From assembly GCA_004022145.1 (NCBI GenBank), contig RCNU01000019.1: a DNA stretch of 37,393 bases; one strand, given 5' to 3'. The stretch comes from Paecilomyces variotii (Eukaryota). Every line of letters begins with the position of its first letter. The first letter of the stretch is position 1. The position numbers and the translations under genes were made by a program. Under the pieces are notes generated by a model. That model had not been told where the DNA came from, searched no databases, and saw only the letters and a list, made by a program, of their open reading frames with translations. Of this stretch, positions 14,747-34,600 are shown piece after piece.

Positions 14747-14910
14747 CCACGACTTCAACCTCGAGCGCCTGGATCCCGAGGTGCGAAATAACCTCAAAAC
14801 TAATAAATCACTTCGAAAGGGCTTTGTGAATATTATAAAAATCGCTGTGGAGTGTTTTGAGGCGAAAAGAGTTCCCACCGCGGAAAATTTGGCGTGGTTC
14901 TGTATTGAAG
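14747..14910 (+). pseudogene. Fragment resembling the C-terminal region of a fungal protein family often annotated as ankyrin-repeat containing
   Basis: HDFNLERLDPEVRNNLKTNKSLRKGFVNIIKIAVECFEAKRVPTAENL; the LKTNKSxRxGF motif is recognised from memory. Confidence 0.45.
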
Positions 14911-15870: not shown

Positions 15871-16080
15871 ATGGGTGCTTCTGCTTATATGGGCGTGGCT
15901 CGGTATATTCATCAAGAGTGCATGCGCTCTGAATTCTGGGAAAAGATAGAAGAGCCTAGCCAGGACATGTATAATGTGGCCTTCCATGTCTTTGATCGAT
16001 ACGGAACACTCAAAACCAAAAGAGGAACTGGTGTGTGGGGAGACGAGCTCGATTATGGCCCTCTTTTCCTGATTGAGTGT
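15871..16080 (+). pseudogene. Fragment resembling the N-terminal region of the same fungal family
   Basis: RSEFWEKIEEPSQDMYNVAFHVFDRYGTLKTKRGTGVWGDELDYGPLFLIE; the FDRYG and GxGVWGxELD motifs are recognised from memory. Confidence 0.5.
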
Positions 16081-16333
16081 CATGGTTCTATTCCCTCCCT
16101 CAATATCAGAGCATTGTCAACTGCTGATGGAGCGATATCGTCGCCAACAATCAGGATCCCAAATTGTTTTACAATGCTGGGTTACTGTAATAATAGTCAA
16201 ACAAATAGTCAAGCCTTTTCAACCAGAGGACAATATTCATACTTTGAGAGTGTTCGGCACGCATCCGCGTGAGAGATATTTTTCGGGGGCCAGGGATGGC
16301 CGTGTTTCGCCATATCAGGTGCTCCCTCACGTC

Positions 16334-17374
16334 CTTCTATATATTTAGCTAGCAGCCTTAGTAGCAATGAGAACTCAGACTCTTCGACAACACCTTTTCT
16401 CTTTGCTCCTAGCACTGTTATCCCCGAGATAACAGATACAAGTTTGTATCTGCTTATACTTCTCGAGGGCCAGCGTTCGGCACGGAAGTAACGGTATGAA
16501 TTGGACTTCCTACTTATCATCACATCTGGGATAGCGTTTGTAAGAAGCTGGGATTCTAGCACATATTAGAAGAGTACCTAACATATATGCATGCAGTCAT
16601 TTATTGAAGCAAGACCTTCCCGCATTGTTATATCATTCGACAAAGTTGACTACGAATATAGAGCTGCTGGCTCCGCTACACGCGGTATAGTGGAGTTTAT
16701 ATATGACTTGGAGCCCATATAATGCCGTAAGGAAGACACTGAAGTCAAGAGGGACGATGCTACGATCAAACTAAGGCGTATGAGATAGAGAATAGCGAAG
16801 TGTAATAACTAGCAACTGATAAGCAATCGGTAACCGTGTAGTAATGCTATACTATAATAAGGAAAGAACTGTCCTATCCCGAAAGAATCGTTCGTGCTGG
16901 CAAGCAAGGCAGTTTGGGATCACAAAAAGGCATAGATATTATGATGTTCCGCGATCTCCGTGTAGCCATCGCATTCTGAGGCAAGCATAGCGTGCTGGCG
17001 AGGATACAGCCGTACAACGCCGGGGTTCGTACCTTGCGGCCATACAGCGAACGGATTGGCCAGATTTGCTTGCAATAGGTTCCATTCCCATGCTTGCTGC
17101 GCAGGAATCCAGGCTGAAGGGACGCTTTGAAAAAGCTCGAACTTGGTGGTATTGGGGGCAAAGAACTGGACGAAGCCAAGAAAAAGTTCGGTGGGGGATT
17201 CGTTGGGGGTCAGCTTGGCTCAAGAGCAATTGGACCTGGCAGCTTCTAGCGTGGAACTAAACAACAAAGTGGATCATAATAGCAAAGAGGAATGCTAGGA
17301 GCAATGGGGGAAAAGTGGTATTAAGGAGTCTGGGTTCTCATTGCTACTAAGGCTGCTAGCTAAATATATAGAAG
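16334..17374. repeat. Inverted repeat pair: arms 16334-16414 and 17293-17374, spacer about 880 bp
   Basis: The outer 41 bp are identical in reverse complement (CTTCTATATATTTAGCTAGCAGCCTTAGTAGCAATGAGAAC); the rest is diverged but ends in a shared TTGCTCCTAGCA. Confidence 0.9.
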
Positions 17375-17949
17375 CATATGAGGAATCGCCTAATATATCG
17401 AAATAGGGTCTGCCTCCCCTAAAGACCAGTCCCGGATATACCAGTTTAAAACATCCCCAGAGTTGTCATCACTCCTTGGCAAGTGCTTCTTTAATCTCCT
17501 CCGAAATTTGCGCGATCCTATTATCCAACGCTGTATTAGTCGCTTGCGTGGAATCGAGTGTCTCAAGGAAAAACCATATCGGTTTCCCGTATCGTATCGA
17601 ACATAGGAAAAGTATCCTTATCTGCCTTCATGGTCTGGTTCAGCGACACAAAATATAATTGGACGCGACTATTATTCTTTATCTTCTCTATATAATCTTA
17701 CCCCGAGCTCCCATACTCAATATACTTTGTTTTGTTCCTGTGCCCACCGTTCCTGCGCTTAATATGGGCTGTTCTATTGCTGCGTTCGACATGGGCTGCC
17801 TTGTTGCAGCGTCCAATGGCGGTGGTCGTGTATTACTCGTAATGTCCACACCTTAGCCCGACCGCGCATCTTAAGATCCTGGTTTTGATCATCGTATTCT
17901 TTCTGATACCAGCGTGGTTCCCCAGGTTTAGGAACATAATGTTCCCCCG

Positions 17950-19508
17950 AGCGCAATGGCGTGCGTATCGGTGAAGGTTAGCCCCGCTTCTAATTGCTGC
18001 AACGTTGTAGGGAACGCTATCTGGCGAACAGCTCATACATTTTCTTCCTGGGTAGTCACACCGAGACGAGACATGTGGTGTCCCAGCATCGATATGGAAG
18101 GGTATGTATTGAAGATAACGAAATGCCCGATCCATCTAGTGTGGTAAGCACTTTGTTAAGATACTGTAGGTGCTATTCCTTTGACTGAAATATCATCAAT
18201 ATATACTAGGAACAAAATACCTGGGCAGTGAGGATGAAACTTCAGATAGCGACGACAATGAACTGGATACCGATGATGATGATCTCTTCATCATTCCTCA
18301 TGGACCCAAGAACAAACCCAGTATACCCAAAAACAATCCAGCGCACCCAAGAAGGAATCCAGTATACTTCGCGATACTTGTAAGGAATAGAATAAGGTAG
18401 CGTGATAAGTAGCAATATTTGCGTAATCGCTGAAGATCTGAAGGCGCACCGTGAGGTGCGCTGCTGAAGGAGCAGTCTTATGGGTCATGTGACCCCCGGT
18501 CACGTACATCTCGTGGTGTGCGCAGTGAGGATATGGCAACGGGATATATTCAATCGGTCTTTAGTTGGACTTCAAGCGACCAGCGAACCAAGACCTATAA
18601 GCCTCTTCCCTCTAATGAGAAACCATTTGTCAATGAGCCGTCCATCATCCGTTGTGCCTCGTCCAATATCATCGATGAGGGTAAGACCAGTAATCGGGAC
18701 CACACACCGAAGACGCCAAACCATCTACAGCAGAGCAGAGACTTACATGAGACTCCGTACTCCGTCCGCTCTTCTGCTTGGAATAGCTAGCCTCCACGGT
18801 GAGTCTCTATTACAATCGCCTAAGATCCCTTATCCTTTAGGCCAAAACCTTCACGTGCTGATTTCTTGGTTCTCATAGGTGCCTCTCGGATCTTCAACTG
18901 TCTGCCTTCTCTCAAATATCGAATACGCTCGTTATTAGTCGCTCTGATAGCTTTGCAGGCCTTGGATTTACAACAGATAACAATCGTTGTAATATTGCAA
19001 TAACCCGTGCAAAGCAATGTTTCATCCTTATTAGGAAAGGTAGCGACACGGCCTCCACGCAGCAATAGAGGAAGAGGGAGACAGACGACAACTGTCTGTG
19101 TGAGCAAAACGTCCGATAGGGGAGGTTGCAGAAATTTTCTCTTCATTGAGTCTAAGCGTTTCCCGCGCAGTTCGTGAGACCGCGGTGATAGGAAACTCTC
19201 GTGGTACATCATCGACACTTTCATTCCACTTCTATTGCTCTTGAGGTCATTTAAACTGATTGTTGACCCTTCACTATTAGTATTATGCCCGTCTCATCTT
19301 CAAGGGTCTCCTCCAGGAGGATCCAGGTACCGAGGAACTGCCTAACACTTATTCTGCCCATGGTTTCCCATTTGAATCCCCCTACGGTCACCTCTGGCTC
19401 GAGTTGAAGAAGGATATTGTTAAGCGCAAGTTATGGGAAGATGCCGTTCAGCACAAGATAAACATCCTGACCAACCTAATCATAAATAGTTGGGCCAAGC
19501 CCGAGTAA
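17950..19508 (+). pseudogene. Decayed spliced gene(s), including a Upf1/Dna2-like SF1 helicase motif VI fragment at 18928-19041
   Basis: Intron-like GTAAGC...TAG (~18144-18209) and GTGAGT...TAG (~18799-18878); acidic tract SEDETSDSDDNELDTDDDD; LVISRSDSFAGLGFTTDNNRCNIAITRAKQCFILI; scattered in-frame stops. Confidence 0.5.
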
Positions 19509-21239
19509 GGGTTTAGGCTTCCACTCCTAACTCTCTACCTGGACCTCGTGCAGGTTCGAACAACGGCCGCGCTTCCGCCGATGGACCAGGATCAATCATA
19601 GTTAACGGTCAGCCGATTACGGTCTCCAACCTCAGCAGCAGCGGAAGCTCCGTTCGCCGCCCCAGCAACGTCCTAAACCAGTGCCATGGGTATCTAGCTT
19701 CTACTCCTGACTCTTCGCTTAAACTTTATACCATCGATCTTACGGCGGCGCGGCTAGTGAGTCCCTATCCGTCCGTCCATAATAGGTGATTCTGAAACAT
19801 ACCGACCGGTACCGGACTACAGTAGCTAACTTAAAATCCTGCAATGGTTTGACCTGGATAGCATATTTAATTATTGACATTCTTTGGTTTCTACGTAATC
19901 AACTGTCTAGCATTTCCGACCATATACCGTTTTCTGTTAGCAATGTCGACGAATTAAATCGATTTTTTTTCTCAACAGTCAGCAAAATCAACGTTAAAAC
20001 TGCAAAACGTTTCTAACAGTTTCTTAACCTTCTAAACACCTTTCCAATCATTTTGCGGTAGTAATGTTTAGAGATCAAACCATTAAGATAACAGATTAAA
20101 CGTTCGGACACTAGTCCGAACATTGTAGAAGAGAAACATTGAAGGTTCCAACCATTAAAAATCTTTTGGGAACGTTACATTAACCTTTCGCATTCCATAC
20201 CTTTTAACTCTACGATAATTCATATACCTTTTAAATCTACAAACCTTTTACATATATAACGTTAGAAAAATATAATGTTAAAAAATTATTTTAATGTTCT
20301 TTTGATACTTCTGTTAAACATGTCGACTTTGCATAAGTTACCGATCTTTAACCGAGTTCTTACCATTTAAAGTCCCCATCAAGGACCGGTATGGTACGCA
20401 GGCCCCACCAACACTTTATCCAGCATCACCTCTTCTGCCTTCCTCCATGTCATGCCACACGCTCGCAGCTAGGAATCACTCTATTATGAACGGCAGATAT
20501 TTGGTAAGTCTCTGTTCCCATTGTGTACAACGAGATTTTGACATGTTATTTCAGCCAAGGAACAGAGACCTCCTGAAACCCCGCTTTTGCCACTGCTGGG
20601 TTAGCGATAAGTAAGCAGGATCGTGGATCAGCATGAAGCTTGGGAGGGAGGTGTAGTATCGGGCGGGAGGAGGAGCAGGCCGAGCTGGCCGGATGCTGTG
20701 TGTACGGACGATGTTCTCACCGTGGTGAGATCCGGCCCGTGTTCCCCATCGATCCCCAGAATTGTGCCATGGGGGTGCGATCCTAACGGCATCCCGACAG
20801 GGAGTGGAATCACATGATGATGTTGTCGCGATAAGCTTTGCTGTTGACAGGGCTGCATCTAGTGGGTCTAATCGCCGTTGGCGGATGGGCCCCCCTGACT
20901 ATATGATTGCTATGATCAATATCAACTGGGCGGAGCCCCAGGGCCTAAATACAATCAATCTCTGGTGAAAAAAACGCCTGCGTTGCCCCGCGCGTTATTG
21001 TCCTTTGGCCGCGTTGGTCAGGCTTATTTCTCTTCTCCTCTTTCTCCTCTCCTCCTCATCTTTTCCTCCTTCTCGTCTCCCATCCCTCCTCCTTTCTTTC
21101 TCCTTCTTATTCCTCTCTCCCTTGTTCCTCTCTCCCCTTGTCTGTTGTGCTGTACCCTTCTTGGGTTATATTTTTTAGTGCCCTGGTTAGATTCTTAGAT
21201 TCCCCTATCTTTGCTTAATCTGCATTATCCAAAATAGCC

Positions 21240-24219
21240 AATATAACAGATGATCCTATTACGGGATTGTAATGGCTCAACCCTAATATAATAATGAATT
21301 CCAACCCCTCCTGCAAGAAGAAGTATTAAAAGTCTAAATTTAAGATCCAACAGTTTAGCAACATGATTGAGGCTGATACGCGGAAAATGTTTTGGTTTAT
21401 TGTGTTGGTCGACATTGCCCCTTTAGACCCTTTCTGGGGATACGGCCTGGCCGCCAATTATGCTCTTTTGGATTCCTATATGGCCAGTATAATCGATATA
21501 TTAACACAAAGAGGCATCCGGCGCTTTGATGCTGAAACGCATCTTTAGGTTGCTATACTTAGTTATCTGGTGAATGCAATCTGTCATAATATGGATAAGC
21601 AGACCCGAGCCTTGGCTAACAACTTCGCCGCTATTACTATCCAGGACTACCCTGTTGTCAATCTTAAACAATACCTGAACTTAAGAGATTAGATACGCCT
21701 TAAGGCTGGTCAATATTGGCGGGCTGCTATTATAAGGATGAATGGCCTGTCTAATATAGCCCGCGAAGGCATCTTTATATAGGAACTGGATGCTATTTGC
21801 GAACAGGTGAGTTATAGGGCCCTATATATTTCCCTCTGGGATAGATTGACTAATGTCCCCGGAGCTGATTATGCCGTCTCCTCAGGATAGTTATGTTGTG
21901 CCGTGCTTCTTCTTCTTCTTCTTCTTTTTGCTCACCATAGTAAGATTTATGCTGACCGGTGTGGCGGGTTAGTCAACCATATGGGCCATTGAGGTGTACG
22001 AGCTTAAGTCCCTTGATAGGTTGCCGATCGTTCGGAACTGGATTATTAGAAATAAAATTAATATTACCTGCCCTGCTAGTAGAGGAGATCTCTTCAGCTG
22101 GTTCTATTAGGCGTAGAGCGGTTTAACACCCGAGCAACGGCAAGAAGTCAAGTCCTCTTATCTGAACTTTGATAAGTTTCTTATAGTGATTTTCGGCCCA
22201 GATCCCAGTTATTACTATAAGATCTATCCAATCATCAAACATGGCCTGTAAAATAACTGCTGCGTCCGCCTGTGCTCCATTCTGTAGACGCGCGAATATA
22301 TAGTGCTTGGGAACCTGTCCAGTGCCGTCAGCGCACATATCCCTCGCGTATATAATTTTTAGTCTCCCCCCCCCCCCCCCCCTTTCTTTTTTCTGACTAT
22401 AATGAGATCAATACTAACTGGCACTGCGGGCGCGCCAGTACTTCCTGGGGTTTATTAATAAGATCCTAAAATAGTTCAAAACTGTTATTAGTTTAGCGGC
22501 CGAGCAAATTAGTCCCTTAGATATAGATCTACTAATACATAAATCTAGCTATTTTACAGGAGTTAAGCTAAGACTACTATTCTTCCCTATTCTGTCCGAT
22601 TTTAGAGTTAATTAAGCCAAGCAGATGATTACCGGGAATACCGCCCGCCTAAATAAAGCATAGATGCTTAAGCACCCTAATACTAAGCCCAACTGGCCCC
22701 GCCTAGCGACGCCATTCCGCAATATAGATAGTAAAGCATACCCGTTCTAGCGCCTAAAGTTCCTGGCCAACTTGAATAATACTATATATATAGATCTCTA
22801 CCACCATCTCCTTAGCAATAATATAGTTAACGCCCCCTTTCTGAAATAGGATATAGTTATAGTGCATAATGCCCGGAAGGCGGGCTTGCTTACTAATCGC
22901 ATCCTAGGATATATAATCTAGTGGTTCAATCCCAATGCAAAGACCCCCGGCACTAAGAATAAGAATGCGCTCTTATGGTTCTGGGACAAGATTATAAAGA
23001 AATATATTATCAATCGCCGCAATAATATATTTATCCTCCCGCTCTGTAATGGCCCGCATGACTCTACAGCTAGTGCCCAGGCTCTAATTAATGCAGTCTT
23101 CCAGATCTGCAAGATTTACTATCAGGAGCTAGACACGGGCAAATACAAGCTGAAGGTACTATCCTCCCCTCCCCTCCCCTGCCCTTAAGCCCCCTGCTGA
23201 CCGATCTGTCTCTAGCTTAAGGATCTCCCCGCCGGCCCCAACAACTATAAGCAGACCATTATATATAACGCCTGTTTTGCCCAGCATCAGTAGAATAGTC
23301 TTTTGCTCCTGGCGTGGGATTTTACCGGCGGCGCGTTCCTAACTCCCGGCGGGCTTAAAGGATATTGGGACTGCACGCAGATCGTAAGTACCCCCCTCCG
23401 GCGGCCTAGTGCCCTTAACTAACCCCGCGGCCGGCAGGTCAATTGCAGTCTGCCCTGGACCATCTAGGGAGACGTCATAGTCCGCCATATGGCCACTGCC
23501 AATCCCGAGTTGCGCAGGATTATACCTATCCTTGGGTTAACCGCCCGGACCGACCTCTGCCATAAGGGCAATATATTTGGGGCGCATTTTATATACTGGC
23601 AGCTCAAGCAGATCTAGACTGAGAATCGCAGCCGGGCTCAGACGGCAACTGTTGGGCTATCTAACTAGCTAGGCATCCTGACCTAGATAAGTCTTTGCCC
23701 TATTCTTACTATGGTGAGAACTACCCTGCGCTGACCGATCCCCAATAGCACTAGCGCATTATTATTAAGGAGGCCTTACACTGGTATACTAAGCTGCTGA
23801 ACTTATTGTCGCCTAACCATATAGACCCCCTTAACCCGAACGAGCCCTTTCATACAATCCGCTTCTCCCACAATTTCTTCCCGAGTATATCTGCTACTAA
23901 TCATGCCCCTCTAGATACTATATAAATCAATTCAGCCCCCCAGGCAACTATAGTAATTAACTCAGTGCTCCTAACAGCCCCCATGCTTACTTCTATTATC
24001 TTACACATCCTATCCTGCATAATAGCACTAATTATCGTCGTGGACCCTTTTATAGAGATAGGTCCGCCGCAGACCCCCAGCATAAACTGCTTTATTCTTA
24101 ATAAACTCAAGCGCAGCGGGGCAGGCTATAGTTATTATTGCCGTGCCAGCAGCGGTGTTAGTAACTTAGGTAGTCCTAGCTCTAATCACAGTAGTCGCAA
24201 GAGGCTGAGGGGCCAGTGA
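21240..24219 (+). pseudogene. RIP-inactivated multi-exon gene of unknown function
   Basis: Long coding-like frames broken mainly by TAG/TAA at CAG/CAA-compatible positions. Clear introns at 23156-23215, 23384-23437 and 23687-23748 (donor mutated to ATAAGT); others at about 21808-21864, 21890-21972 and 22360-22438. TpA excess. Confidence 0.7.
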
Positions 24220-25386
24220 GCCTCCCCAGCAATCCCATAATAGGGAGTAAGATAGATGGGTTAGTGATTTAGGATGGTGGCGCGGTTTTTTTTCTTTTAG
24301 TTTTCTAAAAGTTCGGTAGTGGTTTAATTCTGTGCTTCAATCCGCCTCTTCCATGTATGAATAGTATTTTTCCCGATGTTTGTTAATACTTGAATACAAT
24401 CTCCGACTGCCGTACTGTGTCTTGTCTCCCCGTGTGGTCCGGGTGGCGCGCCAGATCGATGATGCCTTGGGGTGACCCCAGAATAGAGTACCTAGTGGGT
24501 CCGAGCCGCGCCGTTGGGGTGGATCCCCACGCTTCGGCCAACCTCCCGCGCTTGATAGGAAATGCCGATTCAGATCCTCACGCCGTCCCTTCGCCCACAA
24601 TCAGACGAGACCTTTTTCTCCATGGTGAGCAAAAGAACAGTTCTCGCGCTTCCGGTGCTCGTCCATCTTTGCCCCCCCTGGTCGGGGTTCGACATCGGTG
24701 ACGCCCCGCTGGCCACCCGCGTGGTTGCGTTGCCCTCCCCCTGTCTCTCAGCCAGCTTCCCCGCCGCGGCCATCGGGCCATCCGGTTTAGCGGTGAGAGA
24801 CGCAGCGCACTGTCTGTGGAATGTCGGTGCAGATGTGGCAGCAGCTGCTAGAAAGAGATCCTGTAGCCAGTTCTAGTATCAACTACCTTATTCTATTCGT
24901 CCTGACCTGATTTCCGAGTCCACACCTTGACACTCTTGTTCAATCCAGGAAATTTACATAACAATATCTATTGCATACTATCGAAACATATTGTACATAT
25001 GACTATGCATATAGAGGTATTTCGATTATATCATCCGGATAGACCGTCCTGCACAGTCGTAACTTCGTAATTTGTCACTTAAAACTCGATATTGCTTGTC
25101 GGCGAGGGCGGGGGGTAAGATATCTGTCATTCGGAAATGCAGAGCTGATCTGCTGCGATAAGTGCTATTGCTGTAGGATCGCACAATGTGAGGTATACAG
25201 GCCACGTATAAAATATGAAAGTATTCGATCATCGCTAGATGACACCAATATGGCGGAGGCGGGTTGGCTGGAGGTTCCGTTCTGCCACAAGATCAACAAG
25301 AGACCAGAAAAAGCCCCAAACTGATCTCTGGCGCAGTGATAAACGGGGAAGGAGAAGCGTCTCTGTATACCCCTTGATATTAGCTT

Positions 25387-28035
25387 TTAGCCAGAAGACG
25401 GGGTTGTCATGCTTTCATCGGATTCTGGTGGAGACAGTTTTCTCTTAGGCTGCTTACGCGGAACGTATTCGGCGACTTTATCCGCGTTGAAGCCATGGTA
25501 CAATCGTAGATGCTCTTTGAGGGCATCCGCTGAATTGAAAACCTTTGATATACAACCTGCAACTTTGCATTTTGAAGGCACCCAGCTGGGATCGTGACAT
25601 CTCATTTTGTGCCTTATATAGGCACCGTAATTGGCATACGGTTTTCCTCCGTTGCAGCCGTATTCACACGCTTGTGTGCTCTTCGTGTGACTCGTTATAT
25701 GCGTTGCCAGGCTGCTATACTTGGAGTATGCCTTTCCACAGCCATGGGGACAGACAAGTGCGGGTGGCGGCAATTTTGCGGGCGGCTTCGTAGGATCACA
25801 TCGAGACACGTGGGAATCAATGCGTCTTCGTGTCGGATGCTTGTAATCACACACGGAGCCGTCGACGAACTTGGTTTTGCAACGAAATTCATAGAGTGTC
25901 GGCGGGTCTCGGCTATTGCCGGTGGCGACAGAGTTATATAGACGCTGTGGTTCATTGAACATCTCCAGAGCCACTCTTTGACACAAGACAATGTTGATTC
26001 TGGCAAAGAAGCGGATGAATTCTTCTCCGGACATCTGCGTCCAGAACTGTTGCGACTCAGGTTCCATATACATGATATCTGCTGTAGCTAGTTTTTCCGC
26101 GTCGGTAAGGTGCAACGGTTCAGAAAAAGCATTATCCTTGCCGGGGGTTGGACTGGAGGAAGTCCCCGCTAGAAATTGCATTTCCTGGTCATCTTTTGGG
26201 ACATAATGAGAGCTGCCTGTTCCGCAGCCAATCAAGTCTTCAAATTGACTCATCATTGTCATTTGCAAGTCGACGTTGTCGTTGCCTGCTTCTACCGAGT
26301 CTCCATCTTCATCGTCACTAACCATGATTTGATCATAGCCAGAAATCTTTCCAGTTTGAGCCTCTGTGGTCATCAACAGGGCTGGATCTATATTGGACGG
26401 TGTTGTTTCCTTGCGCTCGACATTTGGGACCTTAATGTTATCACCAGATGCCTCGGCTTCAGTTGGGGTTATACCAGACGTAGTCCCAAGTGTGTCTTGA
26501 CCAGTCCTGTTTGAAGTAGATTTATGTATGGGGCCCTTCACCGCTTCCTCTTTCCATGCGTCGAACTCGGATCGGAACAGGGCCCTCGCTGCCTTACGAC
26601 GGTTGCTCTGCGATGAAGGATCAAGACCGCGTTCTTGACACCAGCTAGTGAGCTCTGGGGAATTCTTGCGTCTTCTTTTTTTCTTCATGGACTCGTCGGC
26701 AACAGGTGGGGCGAAGGGATCCTGGAAGGGATGGGAAGCTCTGGCTGTAGTGGTGTCGACGCCGAGTCCCCCCATATACATCTCCGTTACACCGGCGTGC
26801 AATGCTTTACGACTATGTCCCAAAGCCCTTGCGACATGTTCAGCACTTGTAAGAGGAAAAGCTTCTGCTGGCACGTGGGCGAGATCTCGGGCAGAACCGT
26901 ATCGGACAGCATGAGATGAGAGCTTTTGGCAAACACCAGCTTTAAGTCCCATATCCTGGATAGTAGCGCGTAATTGCTGGGTACGTGCTGGAATGTCGGC
27001 AGAGAGAAATCCATGCTGCTCGATGCCACATATGACAGGACGCTGGGGGATCTGCCAAACAACTTTGTGGTCACGTCGTGAAAAGGCTTGCTGCAGAACC
27101 TCATCTAGTGTAGTGAGCGGAGAATTGGGATCCTTCTGGGAAGCACATGCTCCTTGACGAAGAGCATGAATCAATAATAGCTTGACAGCGTCGATCGCGA
27201 ATAGCTCTGGAGCTTCATATTGTCTAACAATATGCGTACGAGCCTCGTGAGGACGGTCTTTTTCTCCCTTAGCGTAATGAAGGGAGACTCTCATGATGAC
27301 GTTCTCGAGGCATGGCTGTTTCTCCACTATCACTTCGATATGCTCGTATAGTAAGCATGCCTTCCCTTCATAATGCTGACTCAGTGCAATATCGCCAGCA
27401 CGAGAGCAACATGCGTGCATCAGTACAATGCTTAAGAGACGAGAGATGTGTATGTCCCACGACCGGCAGCCGTTTTCGAGCCCGTCTTCAATCCACGCTC
27501 TTGCCATATTTCGAAGGAGGATAAGACCCACAAAGCAGCCTTGCTTCCTGGCCCCTTTTATGAGCTTACCCTCCTGTCTGAGGCGAGCAATGCACGAATC
27601 AAGTCTTTTGGCTTCGCCATTCGTCATCCGATAGTCCGGATATCGGAAAGACAAACCATCTACAAGTAAGGAAATCGAGCCGCGAATAGTGTATTCTGAT
27701 ATGGCATGGCCCTCACCATAACGGGATTTCATGTTGCGTACCACCGTTTCGACAAACCGGATTAGCTCGTCACCAGTAGGAGGGCCGTCTGGGGGGTTTC
27801 TGGAAGTCGCCCTGAATGCGTCGAATCGATTCATGGTCATTTGGCGCATTTGCTGGGTGGATGGAGCGCCTCGCTGATCAGTAAGGGTCTTGAGTCGTTT
27901 CTTGGAGTGGGCTCGGTCTTCAAATTGGTTCTCTTGCATTTTCTGAATACTGGCAAAACCTGCTCGTGCAAATTTATTCACCGGCGGCTCGTCAATTTCA
28001 ATATCTGATGAATTGAAATCTTGCGTAGCTGCCAT
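25387..28035 (-). CDS. Tyrosine recombinase (phage-integrase fold) with a basic NLS and C-terminal C2H2/C2HC zinc fingers, 882 aa, intronless
   Basis: Catalytic set in the correct order: R212 (CCSRAGD), K256 (HYAKGEKD), H375-x-x-R378 (SSHAVRYGSA), H407 (RALGHS), Y420 (VTEMY). NLS MKKKRRRK; acidic linker; fingers CPHGC...HITSH, CEYGC...HKMRCH, CKVAGC...HLRLYH plus an upstream C-x9-C-x12-H-x3-C. Confidence 0.9.
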   Translation of the reverse strand: MAATQDFNSSDIEIDEPPVNKFARAGFASIQKMQENQFEDRAHSKKRLKTLTDQRGAPSTQQMRQMTMNRFDAFRATSRNPPDGPPTGDELIRFVETVVRNMKSRYGEGHAISEYTIRGSISLLVDGLSFRYPDYRMTNGEAKRLDSCIARLRQEGKLIKGARKQGCFVGLILLRNMARAWIEDGLENGCRSWDIHISRLLSIVLMHACCSRAGDIALSQHYEGKACLLYEHIEVIVEKQPCLENVIMRVSLHYAKGEKDRPHEARTHIVRQYEAPELFAIDAVKLLLIHALRQGACASQKDPNSPLTTLDEVLQQAFSRRDHKVVWQIPQRPVICGIEQHGFLSADIPARTQQLRATIQDMGLKAGVCQKLSSHAVRYGSARDLAHVPAEAFPLTSAEHVARALGHSRKALHAGVTEMYMGGLGVDTTTARASHPFQDPFAPPVADESMKKKRRRKNSPELTSWCQERGLDPSSQSNRRKAARALFRSEFDAWKEEAVKGPIHKSTSNRTGQDTLGTTSGITPTEAEASGDNIKVPNVERKETTPSNIDPALLMTTEAQTGKISGYDQIMVSDDEDGDSVEAGNDNVDLQMTMMSQFEDLIGCGTGSSHYVPKDDQEMQFLAGTSSSPTPGKDNAFSEPLHLTDAEKLATADIMYMEPESQQFWTQMSGEEFIRFFARINIVLCQRVALEMFNEPQRLYNSVATGNSRDPPTLYEFRCKTKFVDGSVCDYKHPTRRRIDSHVSRCDPTKPPAKLPPPALVCPHGCGKAYSKYSSLATHITSHTKSTQACEYGCNGGKPYANYGAYIRHKMRCHDPSWVPSKCKVAGCISKVFNSADALKEHLRLYHGFNADKVAEYVPRKQPKRKLSPPESDESMTTPSSG

Positions 28036-30399
28036 GGCTGTTGTAGATTGTGATGAAGCGAGCGTGTAAGCTGTTTGGATCGACCAGGTGAAACTAGAGG
28101 TCTGTCAAATCTCACGACGAAGCGGGTGGTACGGCGGTACAGAAACTAAGGATACATTTCATATTAGTATTTTGAAGTAACAAACAAGACAAGAGACTTA
28201 CAACGAAGTGCGTGACTTAGAAGTGCCACAACAACAGCAGAGCAAGTTAAGGGTAGCTGCTGAGAAGGTGAACATAGGATCTCACAAGATTACCGACTGT
28301 TCATATTAGACTATTTGATACAACTAGGCGAGCAAGAAGCTTACTATAAGATATGCAGCTCAGCTGCATCACAGAAGAAGTAATAGAATAAATAGGAGAA
28401 TGGGGATCGAGAATGAATGTAGAAGGATATGAAAGAAGAATTTGAAATTGTCAGAGAAAGCTTTGGCACGGCAATATCTGTCTGGGGATAAAACCCAGAC
28501 TGAAAATTTTGCTCGATAGCACGCTGAATGTGGGAACGAACGGTACTCGGCTGGACCACGATGGAAGATGAGCGAGAGACGATGAAAGATGAGGGAGAGA
28601 GGAAGACGAGAGAAATCCAGACCGAGGGGCAGGCCGGGTACTTGTTAGATCGTGGCCTCTTTATCTTCGCTCCTGCCTTTAGCAGAACAATGACGCAAGA
28701 GACAGCCGTCAGAACACTTACCGGAGCCTCACTGTCTGCACATTTCTCTAGGCATAGTCTCTTCTCCTCGAGTGAGATAACCTTTTGACCCGCATTACAC
28801 AGAAGGAAAGGGTCTGTATGCACTGGTGCCCTTGTTTCTGTTGCTTCCATTATGGAGCAGACGGACGATGTCTATATCTACACCTCCTTCCCAACCCCTC
28901 AAACTGCCTGGTATGCCAATTGCCGCGATACTGCTTACATCTACACGGTGGTCTCCCATTTGACGTTTCGGAAGTTGATATTAGAACTATCTTCTCGCAG
29001 TATTTTAACAGTAACCGTACATGTAAGTCTAATGTCTTTTAGATCTTCTTGACCGGGAGACGAATCTCGTATGCTGGAGCCGAGATCCCACAGGAGAGTC
29101 CGTGGGGGATTCCCATTGTGAATCAAATGCACCACCGATGTTCCGCAATGGCTCGATCTGGTTTCTCACCATGGTGAGATTGAAGCCATTATGAGTCCGT
29201 GTCTCACTGCCAGCGGTCGAACCCAAATCTCACCAGGTGAGATCAAGTAGCCTGACTTCTAAAACTCCCTCTCTCTGCCTTCTCACCTGGGCTCGCCGGG
29301 ACCCCGCACAACCCACCCAGAAGAGAAAGAGCGTGCAAAACCCCGAGCAGACCACCGTACCAAAATTCTTTTCTTCTCTTTCTTCCTCATCTTCTCTCTG
29401 TCGGTTCTGTCGATTATCCATGGACAGCTCAGTTCTATATCTCCTCTACCTCTCCTCCGCCATCCTCCTTGCTCCTTCCCTCGAAACCCAGCCTGCACAC
29501 CAGATTCTTTATCAGACTTCAACATCCCCGGGGCCCTTGCGAGTACGGTAGGCTATTGGTTGAGGGTATTAGGGGTTAGATATAGCCCAGGGACAAACAG
29601 CTTCAACTTCAAAGACCTGTCCGTGAAAAGAGGTCACGGTGATTACTTCAACATAAAGCCAGTCCGTGGATCTTCTCCACCAGCCAGTCTTGCCATATTG
29701 ATCAGAGGTTGGATCTCCATAAAGCTGGAATCCAGGGCATATACGGGTCTGCCGACAACCGCGCAGACGGCGGCAATAACGAATGGATTGGAAAAGCAGA
29801 CGCAGGCGGAGTTAGATGCAGAGAATTAGGGAGCCGGAGGACCTGCAGGAGAGAGATGGGGAATCCCGATATAGTCTTTCTTGCTGGTTACTAGCCCTTT
29901 CAAGTCAAATCTCACCATGGTGAGATTGGTGGCCCCTGGGTTGCGATTGGCCTAGCGCCCAGCCTTAACATTTCCACAGAGAACCTTTTCAACCTGTTGC
30001 CGTTCCTCCTTATCTTCCTACTGACCGTTCCACCCCCTGCTCTCTTATCATCGCTATCCCCTACACTAGGTTCCTTGATGTCGCACAAGATAGCCAACTC
30101 TACACCCTCATGGCGTTCCTGAGAACCCTCGCGGATATCCTGAGGTGATCGGCCACCTTCTAGAGCTCTTAGAGAAAATGTGCGCAATAATGTGCAGTTT
30201 CTGGGCCTTTCTCTGGCCAACCTGGTGGATTTAATAGATACAGACTTCTTTAGCCGGTCGGCCTCTTTTTGGCGCGGATTTAGATTCTGTATAGAAAGTA
30301 GGTTGCTAGCGGCATATATATATAACTTTGATAGAGCAATTCGCGGCGGAGAGCTGAGGGAATTTTTTAACATCTGTATATCTTACTTCTGTAGCTAGA

Positions 30400-31640
30400 G
30401 ATAGCAAGCTATTATTATATATAAGAACCTTACTATAAGAGACTTTATAAATTAGCAATTAGCAAACTATCTAGAAATCTTACTATAGTGAAATTAGTTT
30501 CAATTTAAGTTTAAATAATATTAGCTCTTATAAGACTATAGATTAATCTAGGTAATTTAAATTTATTCTCTATTCTTTTTAACTAGTTATAAGCTTAAGT
30601 AATACAGATAACGATAAAATAATGGTTTTTGTAGCTTAAATACCAGAACTTTAAATAAATTTAGAGGATAAAGCTTATCTTCTCCTACCTAGTAGGAGAA
30701 GGAGACTATATCTAGCTAATACTTATATAACAGGATGCTTATACCTTTATACCCTTCTCTAGTCGCTCTATTAGTAGATCTATATTAGAATCCCCCCTTT
30801 TTATTAAATTAATATCCTTATTATAACTCTCTTATATTTCTTATTTAACTTCTATAGCTAAAAATAATTATTCTATTCTTTATTTATAAAAGTATTAAAA
30901 TATTTAATAGTTATAATTAATTCTATAGTTATACCTATTAGCTAAATAATATTTAGCCTATTTATAAATAGTGTTTATTTTTAATTCTAGTAGGCTTTTT
31001 TTTAATTATTATATTTATTCTTAAACTATAATATTATAATCTATAAGTATATATAATATATTATAATAATTATAGTTATTAAATCTATTTATACTTTTTT
31101 AATAGTTATTTTAAATATAAGTAATATATATTTTGCGGAAATAATAATATTATTTTTATTTACCTATAAGTATCTAAATAATATATTAGTTTCTTTCTTA
31201 AGAGTAGGCTAAATATAAAGTATTTATCCTTTATTTTTAGAAGAATTTATAAGTAAACTAATTAATATAAAAAAGAGATATTATAAATTAACTAATATAG
31301 GTTACTTAAATAGAGTAATATTATAATAAATAACTAATATAAGGAAGAATTATAAATTAAAATATAAGAAAAGAAAATATTTTCTAATAAATAAAAGTAA
31401 TTCTATATTATCTTATATTATAAGGGTAATATTATTATTATTATAAAGAGAATCTATAATTATAAGATTAGTATAAATAGGTAATTAAATTAGCTCTTCT
31501 ATTTATATATTAATAAATTATATTTATAATAATAATATCTTTAATAATATTAATACTAGTATAAATATAAATTATAAGAATTAAGGAATAGATTTAATTA
31601 TTTATATAATTATTTCTATTATAGTAAAGTATTCTAATAA
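30400..31640. other. Heavily RIP-mutated AT-rich DNA of unresolved origin between the recombinase region and the retrotransposon
   Basis: Abrupt drop in GC near 30400, near absence of CpA/TpG, and a RIP-mutated copy of the palindrome at 30476-30495. Confidence 0.6.
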
Positions 31641-31643
31641 TAC

Positions 31644-34600
31644 TGTAGTAGGGAGAATTAGTGTAAAGAATGTAATTAGTTAAGAGGTTATATGCTTTTG
31701 CTTAAAGCCTTTAAAAAGTCTATAAGTAAAGCAGAAGAGGAGGAAGAATAAGAGAGAGATAATATCTTTCAGTTATTTAAAATAAAATAATTAGTTTTTC
31801 CTTTCTATTATTGTTTAATATTAGTTTAATATTAGACTATTATTAGTTTATTATATTAGTTTATAGCTAAAGCTTCTTCTCTAACTCTACTTTAAGCTCT
31901 AAAACTAAATACTCTTCTCTTCTTTCTTAATATCTACTTACTTAAAGACTCTATACTAAGTCTTAATATATCTTCTTATAATAAATTAAAGCTAAATATA
32001 AGGGGCATTAAAATATTAAATAAAAATAAGGGAGAAAAGAGAATTAGAAACTAAGATTAAGGCTAAAACTAAAAAAAGGGATAAAAAATAGTAAAAAAAT
32101 AAATAAAATAGCTAAAGAAGATTACTATTATAAATAAAAAGAGATAAATATATTTCTTAAATTAATAAAGATAGTAAATATAATATAAGGCAAAAATATA
32201 TATTAATAATAAGAGAAAAGAAAAATTATTAAATATAAAGAAGAGCTCAGCAAATATAAAAGAGAAATAAAAATTTAAAAAAAATAAGAAATTATTAAAT
32301 AAGAATTATTTATTAAAAAATAGAAGAATTTCTTATTATTATTTTTATTACTATTTTTTTAAAAAAATATAGAAAAAAATACTAATCTTTTTAATATTAG
32401 TTAAGATAGAAAAACTCTTAGCTTTTTAATATTACTAGGTTTAAAGATATAAATAACTCAGGTATTTAAAAATATAGGACTACTAATAATATAGCTAATC
32501 TAGATTATATTAGCTCTATAAATACTAATATCTAAAAATTCTAAAATACTATATTTTAAAAAAAATAATATTACTTATTATCTAAGGCTTTTTAAAAGGC
32601 TATATAAGGTAAATTAACTTTTAAAAAAGGAAAAAACTAAATAATTTATAAACTATTATAGCCTATCGGTATTATTTTAAATAAATACTTAATCTAAATA
32701 TAAAGAGAAGAATTATTTAAAATTAGTAAAAATAATTAAATAAAAATATATTTATTATAATAAATACTAAAAGAAATATAATATCTAATAGCTAAAAAGG
32801 TTTAAAAATATAAAATATAATAGCTCTAAGGATCTAAAAGAATATAATTAAGAATATTAAGCTATATTAAAAGCGCTAGTAACTTTAAATAAGTTAAGCT
32901 AATACTTATAAAAAGTTTAATATCTTTAAGAACTTCTAAAAAAGTTTAAATAATAAATAGTTTAAAAATTAAATATAGACTATTATACTCTATCTATTAT
33001 TAAATATACTAATTTTTATAAAAAAATAGTAAATAAGATAAGAATAATTAAAACTTTTTATTATCTTAATAATAACAAACTAGAGAAAGATTAAGATATA
33101 ATAGCTTTAATAAAGATAAAGATAATTAAAGAAAATAATATATAATTTTTTATTAAATTTAATAGAACCTATCTAGATAAGAATAAGAGTAAGATTAAAT
33201 AATAAAATATTAAAGTAAAGTTAATAAAATAGTTATAAATTAATTAATTAATAAAAGAGTTTAAGAAGTTAAAACTATATAATATATAATATATAAAAAG
33301 GCCCAATAATAATATACTTAATACTAATATAAATATATAAGCTAGGGCGCCTTTAGGATTTAACCTAACTAAAGGATTTAAAATACCTCTAAATTTATAT
33401 AACTTTTATTAAGCTCTTAATTATATTTAATCCTACTGCTTAGATTTAAAAAGCCTTTTAAATTAAAAGCTTATTTATTAAAAAGAAGACTATAAATTTT
33501 ATTTTAGACTAAAAAGATAAAATAGAGAAGTTATTTATCTTATATAGGGGAATATATTATAAAAGAAGATTATTAAATAAAGATTAAAAAAAGAATAAAA
33601 GAATATTAGCTTAATTAGATATAATATCTAATTAATTATACTAGGATAGCCTAAGAATAATTTAAGCTCTAAGAAAAAAGCTAGGAATATTATAAAAAAT
33701 TACTACTCTATTAATATAATAAGATTAGATAAGTCTTAAAAAATAAAAAAAAGATAAAGTAAGACTAAATAATTATATAAAAAAAAGCTATAAAAAATAA
33801 TTAAATAAAAACAAAGATTTTCTTTAGTTAAGATAAACTAATTTAGCAATTATTAGCCTCTAAATATAATTAAAAAAGTAAAAATAATTAAAAAAAAAAT
33901 AAAAAATATGCTTAAATAAAATAAAGATAAAAAGATTATTAAGATAAAGGAGAAGCAAAAATTAAAAAGGTTTAAAATTATAAATAAGCTAAAAGGAACT
34001 ACTAATATAATAGGGATTATAAACTAAATATTAAATATTAGAGTTTAAATATTAATTTAAGATCTTATTAGTCTATCTCCTAATTTATATAAGGCCTTAT
34101 TTACCTTATAACTATAATAGGTAATAATAAAGATAATATTCTATAATACTAAAGGAATATAGTTTAATGCCTTTATATTAAATATAAAGTATATAATAAA
34201 TAATATAGATTAGTATACTTGCGCATTCTTATAATTTAAGCCTCTTAATAAAGATAAAGTACTATATATAGCTATAACTCTAAAATTACTAATTAAAATT
34301 AATAGTTATAAAGAGATATAAAATATTATAATAAATAATAGAGCCAAAATTAATATAATATATAAAAATATAATAAATTACTATAAACTTATTATAAACT
34401 AAAAATTTAAAGATAATATAATATCAGCAGATAATAGGCAGACCTCTTTTATAGGTCTTTATAAAAAAGTGCCTATATAGGTAAAATCTTTTTATTATAA
34501 GGTCTCTTTTTTTATAATAAATAATAAGATTAACTATAATTATATTCTGGGACGGCCTTTTAAATATTAAGTATATTTATAATATATTACTCTATTAAAT

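What the first reader, a model, noticed from the sequence alone, without database searches (positions are those of the whole stretch)
25387..28035. Intact zinc-finger tyrosine recombinase that may define an uncharacterised class of fungal YR element
Seen: an uninterrupted 882-codon ORF with the full R212-K256-H375-R378-H407-Y420 set, an NLS and 3-4 C-terminal zinc fingers. It is the only clearly intact gene between ~11 kb and the window end. Known: the main fungal YR carriers are Starship captains (DUF3435), Cryptons (CryptonF often intron-containing with a GCR1_C domain) and DIRS/Ngaro (YR alongside RT/RNaseH). Inference: the phage-like HxxR...LGH...Y motifs, zinc-finger tail, lack of introns and lack of linked RT fit none of these well, so this may be the mobiliser of a distinct DNA element that annotation pipelines would label simply as a C2H2 protein.
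Basis: partly seen in the sequence, partly recalled or inferred. Interest (0 to 1): 0.88.

Follow-up and report, generated by a model that had tools for sequence, protein, structure and literature searches.

The report
Starship-captain-type recombinase with zinc fingers
This intact fungal gene encodes a DNA-cutting tyrosine recombinase with a zinc-finger tail, of the kind that moves giant "Starship" transposons; it sits at the edge of a strain-variable, mostly decayed DNA segment and is a new example of a known kind rather than a new class.

Summary
An uninterrupted 882-codon ORF lies at 25387-28035 (minus strand), with R212-K256-H375-R378-H407-Y420, a KKKRRRK patch and four C-terminal fingers. 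A model of residues 1-480 matches Cre, XerA, XerH and lambda Int. The tyrosine is kept in 128 of 128 relatives.

The "uncharacterised class" reading does not hold. Pfam sees only C2H2 in the query. But 22 of 50 relatives hit DUF3435, the Starship-captain family, 8 of them above Pfam's cutoff, and these lie scattered around the query in a tree. The nearest ESM Atlas clusters are DUF3435. DUF3435 plus a zinc-finger InterPro entry is already a listed captain architecture.

A near-identical fragment is named Paecilomyces variotii. Two runs with the same species label lack the gene and leave the window at 10993/10994. The gene therefore lies near one end of a variable segment of at least 19.4 kb that holds only pseudogene scraps. 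The right end, terminal repeats and captain family remain unresolved.

Verdict: new member of a known kind; modest interest.

The parts
25387..28035 (-). Complete 882-codon CDS of the tyrosine recombinase (P0001), intronless.
   Evidence: The exact sequence is on record in NCBI on 3 contigs.
27568..27885 (-). Core-binding (CB) helical domain, about residues 51-156.
   Evidence: Model helices. Aligned to the CB domains of Cre, XerA and XerH, and alone to N-terminal integrase domains (rows 1-3, 34, 48).
26743..27537 (-). Catalytic (CAT) domain, about residues 167-431. Codons: R212 27400-27402, K256 27268-27270, H375 26911-26913, R378 26902-26904, H407 26815-26817, Y420 26776-26778.
   Evidence: Lambda Int 1z1b Z 12.8, rmsd 3.3 over 168 residues; 1ae9 Z 11.8. 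Positions; conservation.
26665..26685 (-). Basic patch KKKRRRK (residues 451-457), a putative nuclear localisation signal.
   Evidence: Sequence. The function is inferred.
26056..26595 (-). Poorly conserved T/D/S/E-rich linker (residues 481-660).
   Evidence: Alignment A1 is gappy here. Composition.
25492..25890 (-). Zinc-finger tail: C2HC 719-746, then C2H2 762-783, 790-814 and 823-847. It is preceded by a conserved GNSRD motif (706-710).
   Evidence: A tail with at least one C2H2 motif is present in 83 of 90 relatives that have 200 aa or more after the YR domain.
10993..10994 (.). Left breakpoint of the strain-variable segment.
   Evidence: An X18 contig matches 10600-10993 and then leaves the window. 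The same joint appears in 22 raw reads of X16 (tables 5 and 8).
10994..25386 (.). Decayed interior ('cargo') between the breakpoint and the 3' end of the gene. It holds a PNK3P scrap (15299-15463, plus strand), an AAA_12 scrap (18862-19065, plus strand), and a block at about 17.3-24.8 kb that differs from other strains almost only by transitions.
   Evidence: Pfam; strain differences; TpA/ApT 1.16-1.20 at 22-24 kb.
28036..30400 (.). 2.4 kb between the start codon and the sharp GC-to-AT junction. This is the candidate position of the captain-side end of the element. The end was not mapped.
   Evidence: GC falls from 0.43 to 0.21 at about 30400. Depth in X18 and X16 is about zero over 25.9-28.6 kb.
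10180..10993 (-). Flank: the 3' part of a sugar-transporter gene whose frame decays at about 11.0 kb.
   Evidence: Sugar_tr profile positions 288-452 only. ORF listing.
30401..37393 (.). Context: an AT-rich block (GC 0.15-0.18) with a RIP-type dinucleotide bias.
   Evidence: (CA+TG)/(AC+GT) 0.14-0.25 and TpA/ApT about 1.3.

Best explanation
The ORF encodes a Starship-captain-type tyrosine recombinase of the DUF3435 superfamily.

Anatomy:
- A Cre-like core-binding domain (about residues 51-156).
- A catalytic domain (about 167-431).
- A basic, NLS-like patch (451-457).
- A disordered linker.
- A tail of one C2HC and three C2H2 zinc fingers.

Context: the fungus is probably Paecilomyces variotii or a close relative. 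The gene lies near one end of a strain-variable segment of at least 19.4 kb. Its 3' end faces the interior of that segment, as captains do in Starships.

Proposed mechanism (inferred):
- The protein enters the nucleus.
- The CB domain and finger tail bind the element ends and the target site.
- Protomers synapse the ends.
- Y420 attacks the DNA backbone and forms a 3'-phosphotyrosyl link, assisted by R212, K256, H375, R378 and H407.
- Strand exchange excises the segment and re-inserts it elsewhere by cut and paste.

Here the cargo has decayed to pseudogene scraps and RIP-mutated repeats. The recombinase is the only clearly intact passenger.

Shown: the fold, conservation of the catalytic residues, family affiliation, presence/absence between strains, and the left breakpoint.
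Inferred: catalytic activity, the roles of the finger tail and basic patch, the captain-side end, and current mobility.
For: Fold:
- Foldseek against PDB ranks Cre first (1crx_A, E 2.1e-6, probability 1.00), followed by XerA, IntI, Flp and XerH.
- The Foldseek-independent aligner gives Cre Z 15.6, XerA 13.9, XerH 13.6, lambda Int Z 12.8 at 3.3 A over 168 residues.

Catalysis:
- Among 153 relatives, counting those with a residue at each site: Y420 128 of 128, H407 130 of 130, R212 140 of 143, K256 142 of 145, R378 129 of 133, H375 115 of 133.
- The full hexad is present in 100 of the 116 relatives that cover all six sites; R-R-Y in 114 of 116.

Family:
- 22 of 50 relatives hit PF11917 (DUF3435) at E <= 0.01, 8 of them above the 25.8-bit cutoff.
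- In a 61-row tree the query lies in an SH-aLRT 95 clade of 20 rows that holds 5 above-cutoff and 6 sub-cutoff members. The label is unclustered: 8 changes for 8 rows against a shuffled mean of 7.7.
- The nearest ESM Atlas clusters are 'DUF3435 domain-containing protein': feature score 0.98 with 200 of 256 features shared, and structure TM 0.69 over 388 residues.

Architecture in print:
- IPR021842 + IPR013087 is listed as a captain signature (GBE 2025 Table 1 passage). IPR013087 is named as a zinc-finger entry in iScience 2026 methods.

Variability:
- For 21.5-31 kb, organism-A runs hold 1.00, 0.99, 0.98, 0.97 and 0.68 of the sampled words, and one genome-sized run of the same label holds 0.00.
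- Laid on 10.6-30.6 kb, X18 and X16 match up to 10993 and then leave the window. Both have about zero depth over the gene.

Context of relatives:
- DUF3723, a listed Starship-associated gene, lies 6-8 kb downstream of the YR remnant in L005.
- A split HET-domain gene and a Zn-cluster transcription factor lie downstream of the YR remnant in L001.

Size is compatible: Paecilomyces Starships are reported at 16-403 kb with 1-123 genes (bioRxiv 10.1101/2025.02.28.640899, sections 9 and 33 read).
Against: - The query itself gives no DUF3435 or Phage_integrase hit, even at E <= 10. A YR-only family profile finds no PDB chain by sequence.
- The captain-side end was not mapped, and no flank-to-flank empty-site joint was recovered. 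In X18 and X16 the sequence after 10993 is a 46-nt piece resembling 24849-24895 on the opposite strand, not the window's 30.4 kb junction.
- No terminal inverted or direct repeats rise above chance. The best is a 13-nt ATATATAT(T)AAC-like match at 10986 and 30314, E 6.2.
- The sugar transporter is truncated at the same place in strains that lack the segment. So the breakpoint may be the edge of an older variable, repeat-rich compartment and not an insertion site.
- No intact cargo gene and no DUF3723, PLP, FRE, NLR or MYB/SANT gene was found in the window.
- No placement against the named captain families could be made.
- No expression or transposition data were available.
Confidence: 0.6

Rival explanations
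1. Orphan ('solo') captain. The recombinase gene is intact, but its element has lost one or both ends and no longer moves. The presence/absence pattern would then reflect deletion or turnover in a repeat-rich accessory compartment.
For: - No terminal repeats and no clean empty site.
- The cargo is decayed to scraps.
- RIP-type differences between strains inside the segment.
- The transporter is truncated at 10993 in carriers and non-carriers alike.
- The Paecilomyces survey reports that on average only 19% of annotated captains per genome could be tied to a full-length Starship.
Against: - The ORF is free of stops and of RIP bias: TpA/ApT is 0.53-0.71 across 25-28 kb.
- All six catalytic residues are kept.
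- Contigs from a run labelled as another organism (X12) match 26234-27791 with 0 differences. That is easier to explain by recent movement.
Confidence: 0.2
2. A compact Crypton-like transposon. The recombinase gene plus a few kb of flank would be the mobile unit, sitting by chance inside a larger variable region.
For: - It is a YR without RT, with no long terminal repeats.
- No intact cargo.
- Some relatives sit on short contigs.
Against: - No GCR1_C domain or any Pfam family other than C2H2.
- The nearest clusters are DUF3435, not Crypton-derived DUF3504. The DUF3504 cluster ranks 23rd by features.
- Non-carrier strains lack the whole 11-30.4 kb stretch, not a 3-7 kb unit.
- No sign of extra copies. 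X11 contig word depth is 28 over the gene and 28-31 beside it. The tool warns that this depth is not a copy number.
- Nearly all relatives' 90% clusters are singletons.
Confidence: 0.08
3. A domesticated host protein. A C2H2 DNA-binding factor would have kept the YR fold as a DNA-binding module, as in Ndc10 or QRICH1-type Crypton derivatives, and would no longer recombine DNA.
For: - The finger tail, the NLS-like patch and a conserved N-terminal motif suggest regulated nuclear DNA binding.
- Ndc10 (Z 8.4) and QRICH1 (Z 7.6) appear among the fold matches.
Against: - The nucleophile Tyr and the second His are invariant, and the R-R-Y core is kept in 114 of 116 relatives at about 30% identity.
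- The gene is absent from two runs with the same species label.
- The distribution is patchy and mostly singleton.
Confidence: 0.05
4. One reading: the mobiliser of a distinct, uncharacterised class of fungal YR element, separate from Starships, Cryptons and DIRS/Ngaro.
For: - The query and 28 of 50 relatives are invisible to PF11917 at E <= 0.01.
- The clade has its own conserved N-terminal acidic motif and a GNSRD motif.
- Members occur in Lipomyces, outside Pezizomycotina.
- No placement in a named captain family was possible.
Against: - Pfam-positive members are interspersed throughout the clade.
- The nearest Atlas clusters are DUF3435.
- The DUF3435 plus zinc-finger architecture is in print as a captain type.
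- Starship-associated DUF3723 lies next to one relative.
Confidence: 0.07

Closest known systems
Starship captains (DUF3435 / PF11917 tyrosine recombinases such as HhpA of Hephaestus in Paecilomyces variotii, and the Enterprise captain, which carries a zinc finger)
   Same: - Two-domain Cre-like YR fold with the full catalytic hexad.
- Homology to PF11917 shown through relatives.
- A C2H2-type tail is a listed captain architecture.
- Low copy number and strain-variable.
- Lies near one end of a variable segment with its 3' end facing inward.
- Relatives are followed by DUF3723 or HET genes.
- The probable host genus is known to carry 33 Starships.
   Different: - The query itself does not reach any PF11917 score.
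- The segment is small (at least 19.4 kb) and holds no intact cargo or auxiliary genes.
- The ends and direct repeats are not defined.
- The captain family is not assigned.
- Relatives also occur in Lipomyces yeasts.
CryptonF DNA transposons (Goodwin et al. 2003; used as outgroup to Starship YRs in NAR 2024)
   Same: - A fungal YR-encoding DNA element without RT.
- No long terminal repeats.
- A DNA-binding domain C-terminal to the YR.
   Different: - No GCR1_C domain.
- Intronless.
- Not multi-copy.
- The nearest clusters are DUF3435, not Crypton-derived families.
- The variable unit is much larger than a Crypton.
Tangerine-family captains of lichen-forming fungi (bioRxiv 10.1101/2025.11.25.690456)
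   Same: A divergent captain lineage. This protein's clade also has Lecanoromycete members (Bacidia, Loekoesia, Imshaugia).
   Different: Tangerine captains have a truncated CB domain and are described as endemic to Lecanoromycetes. This protein has a full CB domain (residues 51-156) and its clade spans five Pezizomycotina classes.
Cre / XerA / XerH / lambda Int (bacterial, archaeal and phage tyrosine recombinases)
   Same: The CB plus CAT fold and the catalytic residue positions. K256 lies at the end of a beta strand next to a hairpin, HxxR lies in a helix, and Tyr lies on a late helix.
   Different: - No detectable sequence similarity.
- A roughly 400-residue eukaryote-style extension with an NLS-like patch and zinc fingers.

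Membership tests
Tyrosine recombinase superfamily | Two-domain fold: a helical core-binding domain plus a catalytic domain | tested here: met
   Foldseek: Cre E 2.1e-6, probability 1.00. VIA-align: Cre Z 15.6, XerA 13.9, XerH 13.6, lambda Int Z 12.8 at rmsd 3.3. The model has pLDDT 69.7 overall and 80-93 in the core.
Tyrosine recombinase superfamily | Catalytic R-K-H-R-H/W-Y set | tested here: met
   Present in the query. Y 128 of 128, second H 130 of 130, R-R-Y core 114 of 116 relatives.
Tyrosine recombinase superfamily | Recombination through a 3'-phosphotyrosyl intermediate | not testable with these tools
   Needs biochemistry or an in vivo excision assay.
DUF3435 (PF11917) / Starship captain | Direct match of the protein to the PF11917 model at the gathering score | tested here: not met
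   No PF11917 row for the query even at E <= 10.
DUF3435 (PF11917) / Starship captain | Homology to PF11917 proteins, shown by nesting among members that pass the model | tested here: met
   22 of 50 relatives at E <= 0.01, 8 of 50 above 25.8 bits. The query lies in an SH-aLRT 95 clade with 5 above-cutoff members, and the label is unclustered. The nearest Atlas clusters carry PF11917 in 93% and 89% of members.
DUF3435 (PF11917) / Starship captain | [quoted passage not shown] | tested here: inconclusive
   The gene's 5' end lies 2.4 kb from the GC/AT junction at about 30.4 kb, and its 3' end faces the mapped breakpoint at 10993/4. The captain-side end itself was not mapped.
DUF3435 (PF11917) / Starship captain | Presence/absence polymorphism of the whole element between strains | tested here: met
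   Four organism-A runs hold 0.97-1.00 of the words and one holds 0.00. X18 and X16 have about zero depth over 25.9-28.6 kb and leave the window at 10993.
DUF3435 (PF11917) / Starship captain | A clean empty site with flanking direct repeats (and TIRs in some families) | tested here: inconclusive
   No flank-to-flank joint within 10.6-30.6 kb. No repeat above chance. The right end may lie outside the laid stretch.
DUF3435 (PF11917) / Starship captain | Carries cargo other than the captain | tested here: inconclusive
   14.4 kb lies between the gene and the breakpoint, but it holds only PNK3P and AAA_12 scraps.
DUF3435 (PF11917) / Starship captain | Placement in one of the named captain families (11 in NAR 2024; 6 found in Paecilomyces) | not tested
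The NAR supplement could not be read, and bioRxiv supplements are closed.
Tangerine-family captains | Truncated CB domain | tested here: not met
   A full CB domain at residues 51-156 aligns to the CB domains of Cre, XerA and XerH. The feature is taken from preprint passages.
   Pfam gives only C2H2-type families for the tail.
CryptonF | A compact element present in several copies | tested here: inconclusive
   No second copy in the window. X11 word depth is 28 over the gene and 28-31 beside it, but the tool warns that this depth is no copy number. No whole genome is held.
DIRS / Ngaro | YR linked to reverse transcriptase and RNase H | tested here: not met
   No RVT or RNase H hit in 50 ORFs of 93 aa or more across 0.8-30.4 kb, nor in 141 ORFs of 55 aa or more flanking the gene.

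The most novel reading that the evidence does not exclude
The C2H2-tailed clade would be a separate deep lineage of captain-like recombinases, defined by the DFNSSDIEF-type N-terminus, the GNSRD motif and a C2HC plus C2H2 finger tail, and mostly invisible to PF11917. Current Starship family schemes would not cover it. It would reach beyond Pezizomycotina into Lipomyces yeasts in at least two clades. It would mobilise compact, nearly cargo-free elements, with the finger tail choosing the target. That would make it an intermediate between Cryptons and giant Starships.
Probability: 0.15. Interest if true: 0.6.

Novelty: new member of a known kind. Interest (0 to 1): 0.3.

Why it matters
The practical value is in annotation. 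This recombinase and many relatives are filed as 'hypothetical' or 'C2H2-type domain-containing protein', and more than half of the sampled relatives escape the DUF3435 model. Captain counts based on that domain therefore undercount this lineage.

The locus also offers a small test case of about 20 kb, with one intact gene. It could be used to ask whether a zinc-finger tail guides captain target choice, a question the Starship literature raises (NAR 2024 passage). Nothing found here changes the picture of fungal mobile elements.

Tried and rejected
- Direct family scans of the query gave no YR family from Pfam or from PDB by sequence.
- A full-length family profile against PDB found only zinc-finger proteins. 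A YR-only profile found nothing. The link to bacterial YRs is therefore by fold only.
- No whole genome is held for the window, so copy number and second sites could not be searched.
- Rfam found no family in the window.
- Repeat searches gave no TIRs or long direct repeats around the gene. The ATATATAT(T)AAC match at 10986 and 30314 is at chance level (E 6.2), and I do not use it.
- The word-indexed protein search found only 10 and 12 relatives, against 1077 by the exhaustive search. It was little use for taxonomy.
- The NAR 2024 supplement could not be read, so I could not check whether this protein is already a listed captain.
- Tangerine family rejected because this protein has a full CB domain.
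- DIRS/Ngaro rejected because there is no RT or RNase H.
- The joint 17999->28592 in X11 and X12 has only 22 matching letters on its shorter side. I read it as a short repeat and do not treat it as a deletion form.
- Searches for a printed link between Starships and Lipomyces found 2 papers, neither reporting captains in Lipomyces.
- A search for Starship + captain + C2H2 found 3 papers, seen only as a listing.
Full report
**1. The observation**

The ORF is real. It runs from 25387 to 28035 on the minus strand and encodes 882 aa from ATG to stop. The stop-to-stop frame is only 23 codons longer. Nine of the ten aligned relatives begin with the same N-terminal motif, so the start codon is credible and no intron is needed.

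KKKRRRK lies at 451-457. The tail holds one C2HC finger (719-746) and three C2H2 fingers (762-783, 790-814, 823-847). Pfam scores zf-C2H2 just above its cutoff, 25.7 against 25.2 bits. PDB phmmer matches five-finger GLI at E 1.5e-6.

**2. It is a tyrosine recombinase**

Sequence tools alone do not show this. Pfam gives no integrase or DUF3435 row for the query even at E <= 10. A YR-only family profile finds no PDB chain.

The fold does show it. An AlphaFold2 model of residues 1-480, built on an 11-sequence alignment, has pLDDT 69.7 overall and 80-93 in the core.
- Foldseek places Cre first (E 2.1e-6, probability 1.00), then XerA, IntI, Flp and XerH.
- An aligner that does not depend on Foldseek gives Cre Z 15.6, XerA 13.9, XerH 13.6, and lambda integrase Z 12.8 at 3.3 A over 168 residues.
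- The match covers a core-binding domain (about 51-156) and a catalytic domain (about 167-431).

In the model, K256 ends a beta strand beside a hairpin, HxxR lies in a helix, and Y420 lies on a late helix. That this is the classic YR layout is my own knowledge.

Across 153 relatives the conservation is as follows.

| Residue | Conserved |
|---|---|
| Y420 | 128 of 128 |
| H407 | 130 of 130 |
| R212 | 140 of 143 |
| K256 | 142 of 145 |
| R378 | 129 of 133 |
| H375 | 115 of 133 |

This holds at about 30% overall identity. It argues for live enzymes and against a domesticated DNA-binding fold.

**3. Which recombinase**

The exhaustive HMMER search with residues 1-480 finds 1077 representative clusters at E <= 1e-3, 523 at <= 1e-10 and 117 at <= 1e-30. 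This is a large family.

Of 50 relatives scanned with Pfam:
- 22 hit PF11917 (DUF3435) at E <= 0.01.
- 8 of those score above the 25.8-bit gathering cutoff.
- 4 touch Phage_integrase weakly.

In a maximum-likelihood tree of 61 YR domains, the DUF3435-positive rows are scattered at random: 8 changes for 8 rows, against a shuffled mean of 7.7. The query, together with its 64%-identical partner from Paecilomyces lecythidis, sits in an SH-aLRT 95 clade of 20 rows. Five of those rows pass the cutoff and six are sub-threshold. The query's own silence in Pfam is therefore a sensitivity limit and does not mark a separate class.

The ESM Atlas agrees. The two nearest clusters by features (0.98; 200 and 194 of 256 features shared) and the nearest by structure (TM 0.69 over 388 residues) are all 'DUF3435 domain-containing protein' clusters from Ascomycota.

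DUF3435 YRs are the captains of Starship giant transposons. [quoted passage not shown]

The zinc-finger tail is a family trait. Of 90 relatives with 200 aa or more after the YR domain, 83 have at least one C2H2 motif and 73 have two or more. The tail is not new for captains either:
- The Enterprise captain is said to carry a zinc finger.
- GBE 2025 Table 1 lists IPR021842 + IPR013087 as a captain signature.
- iScience 2026 methods name IPR013087 as a zinc-finger entry.

The Tangerine family is excluded. Its captains have a truncated CB domain, and this protein has a full one.

I could not place the protein in one of the named captain families, because no reference sequences were available and the supplement was unreadable.

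**4. Host and distribution**

The exact protein is on record in NCBI on three contigs. A 98%-identical 399-aa fragment is named Paecilomyces variotii. The window therefore probably comes from that species or a very close relative.

Named relatives come from the following genera.

| Group | Genera |
|---|---|
| Eurotiomycetes | Paecilomyces, Penicillium, Exophiala, Rhinocladiella |
| Dothideomycetes | Vermiconidia, Diplodia, Elsinoe, Friedmanniomyces |
| Lecanoromycetes | Bacidia, Loekoesia, Imshaugia |
| Leotiomycetes | Botrytis, Glarea |
| Sordariomycetes | Fusarium, Diaporthe |
| Orbiliomycetes | Orbilia |
| Lipomyces yeasts | Lipomyces |

The class assignments are my own knowledge. Seventeen of the 20 clusters looked up at 90% identity have a single member.

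The Paecilomyces genus has been surveyed: 33 Starships of 16-403 kb with 1-123 genes, from six captain families. On average only 19% of annotated captains per genome could be tied to a full-length element (preprint sections 9 and 33).

**5. The locus**

| Window position | Content |
|---|---|
| 1-2 kb | GH11 xylanase |
| 3-4.4 kb | PLP-dependent enzyme |
| 5-7.6 kb | Zn2Cys6 transcription factor |
| 10.2-11.0 kb | 3' part of a sugar transporter; frame decays at about 11.0 kb |
| 11-25.4 kb | only a PNK3P scrap and an AAA_12 scrap |
| 25.4-28.0 kb | the YR gene |
| 28.0-30.4 kb | three ORFs without Pfam hits |
| 30.4-37.4 kb | GC falls to 0.15-0.18 with strong RIP-type bias |

The gene itself shows no RIP bias.

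**6. Variation between strains**

For 21.5-31 kb, four runs of organism A hold 0.97-1.00 of the sampled words and one holds 0.68. One genome-sized run with the same species label holds 0.00.

I laid X18, X11, X12 and X16 on 10.6-30.6 kb.
- A 17.8-kb X18 contig matches 10600-10993 with 9 differences and then leaves the window.
- The same joint is seen in 22 raw reads of X16.
- Both runs have about zero depth over 25.9-28.6 kb. Across the rest of 11-30.4 kb only short pieces were listed for X18 (70-154 nt, about 90% identity); for X16 the tool printed no pieces, only low depth in some bins.

So a segment from 10994 to at least 30.4 kb is present in some strains and absent in others, and the recombinase lies near its far end with its 3' end facing inward. 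This fits captain geometry. That captains are transcribed toward the element interior is recalled knowledge.

The evidence has clear limits:
- The captain-side end was not found.
- No flank-to-flank joint was recovered.
- After 10993 the non-carriers continue into a 46-nt piece like 24849-24895 on the opposite strand. In X16 that piece is a multi-copy repeat flanked by AT-rich sequence.
- No terminal repeats rise above chance.
- The transporter is truncated in non-carriers too, so the breakpoint may mark the edge of an older variable compartment.

**7. Relatives' context**

Five metagenome-collection loci encode relatives.
- In L005 a DUF3723 gene lies 6-8 kb downstream of the YR remnant. DUF3723 is listed among Starship-related genes in GBE 2025 Table 1.
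- In L001 a split HET-domain gene and a Zn-cluster transcription factor follow it.

Only two loci are informative, so this counts as weak support.

**8. Verdict**

This is a captain-type (DUF3435-superfamily) tyrosine recombinase with a C2H2 tail. It most likely belongs to a small, decayed Starship-like element (confidence 0.6).

| Rival | Confidence |
|---|---|
| Orphan captain in a variable compartment | 0.2 |
| Compact Crypton-like unit | 0.08 |
| Domesticated host factor | 0.05 |

Its claim of a class apart from Starships is not supported. Novelty: new member of a known kind. Interest: modest, mainly as an annotation lesson and a compact test case for how finger tails guide captains.

Noticed in passing
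window 17345-24833: Strain X11 covers the whole segment. Its contigs over 17345-22353 and 22369-29395 differ from the window at 212 and 264 places, almost all transitions, while 10.6-17.3 kb differs at 0-2 places per contig. X12 shows about 10-13% differences at 22441-24833 but 0 at 26234-27791. At 34 of the 36 places listed between 22.1 and 23.34 kb the window has T or A where X11 and X12 have C or G. This looks like independent RIP on a nested repeat (RIP index).
   Followed up: partly
window 24847-24897: A piece of about 50 nt is multi-copy in the non-carrier genomes, where it is flanked by AT-rich sequence (313 and 254 loose-end reads in X16). In reverse orientation it is what follows position 10993 in X18 and X16. 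It has no second copy in the window.
   Followed up: partly
window 26234-27791 versus run X12: Contigs from a run labelled as a different organism (B) match the recombinase gene with 0 differences over 1568 nt. This may reflect recent horizontal transfer, a close relative or a labelling issue. I did not pursue it.
   Followed up: no
window 20146-20859 and 29276-29942: Very high contig word depth in X12 (696 and 1035), and pieces of about 90% identity in X18 at 29366-29693. These are probably dispersed repeats.
   Followed up: no
window 10180-11026 (minus strand): A sugar transporter is represented only by its C-terminal third (Pfam Sugar_tr positions 288-452). It is frame-broken near 10.93-11.0 kb and is truncated at the same point in carrier and non-carrier strains.
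   Followed up: partly
window 30401-37393: At least 7 kb of 15-18% GC sequence with (CA+TG)/(AC+GT) of 0.14-0.25. It is a heavily RIP-mutated block that begins sharply at about 30.4 kb.
   Followed up: partly
window 15299-15463 (plus strand) and 18862-19065 (plus strand): Isolated pseudogene scraps: the last 26 positions of a PNK3P domain (E 2.7e-5) and the end of an AAA_12 helicase domain (E 5e-6).
   Followed up: no
window 11487-11577 / 14492-14580; 13267-13380 / 16741-16856 (inverted); 16305-16414 / 17293-17403 (inverted): Short degenerate repeats (76-82% identity) inside the decayed interior.
   Followed up: no
relatives P0005, P0007, P0008 (L. tetrasporus, L. kononenkoae) and P0025 (L. 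starkeyi): Captain-like YRs occur in Lipomyces yeasts in at least two separate clades. P0025 groups with Glarea P0035 (SH-aLRT 97) and Diaporthe P0003. The two papers in the library that hold both 'Starship' and 'Lipomyces' do not report this.
   Followed up: partly
P0001 residues 6-18 and 706-713: Two conserved accessory motifs of unknown role. An acidic N-terminal DFNSSDIEF-type motif occurs in 36 of 153 relatives within the first 150 aa, though many sequences are N-terminally truncated. A GNSRD-type motif lies just before the fingers in 46 of 90 relatives with long tails.
   Followed up: partly
P0003 (Diaporthe eres): This protein carries a precomputed Pfam label PF26218.1 in the protein collection. 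The local Pfam copy did not report that family at E <= 0.1, and I could not find out what it is.
   Followed up: no
L005 16841-18112; L001 10793-12916: A frame-broken DUF3723 gene lies next to a degraded YR relative in L005. A HET-domain gene split over two frames lies next to another relative in L001.
   Followed up: partly
window 1120-7581: Ordinary fungal genes to the left of the variable segment: a GH11 xylanase (two exons), a PLP-dependent enzyme and a Zn2Cys6 transcription factor.
   Followed up: no
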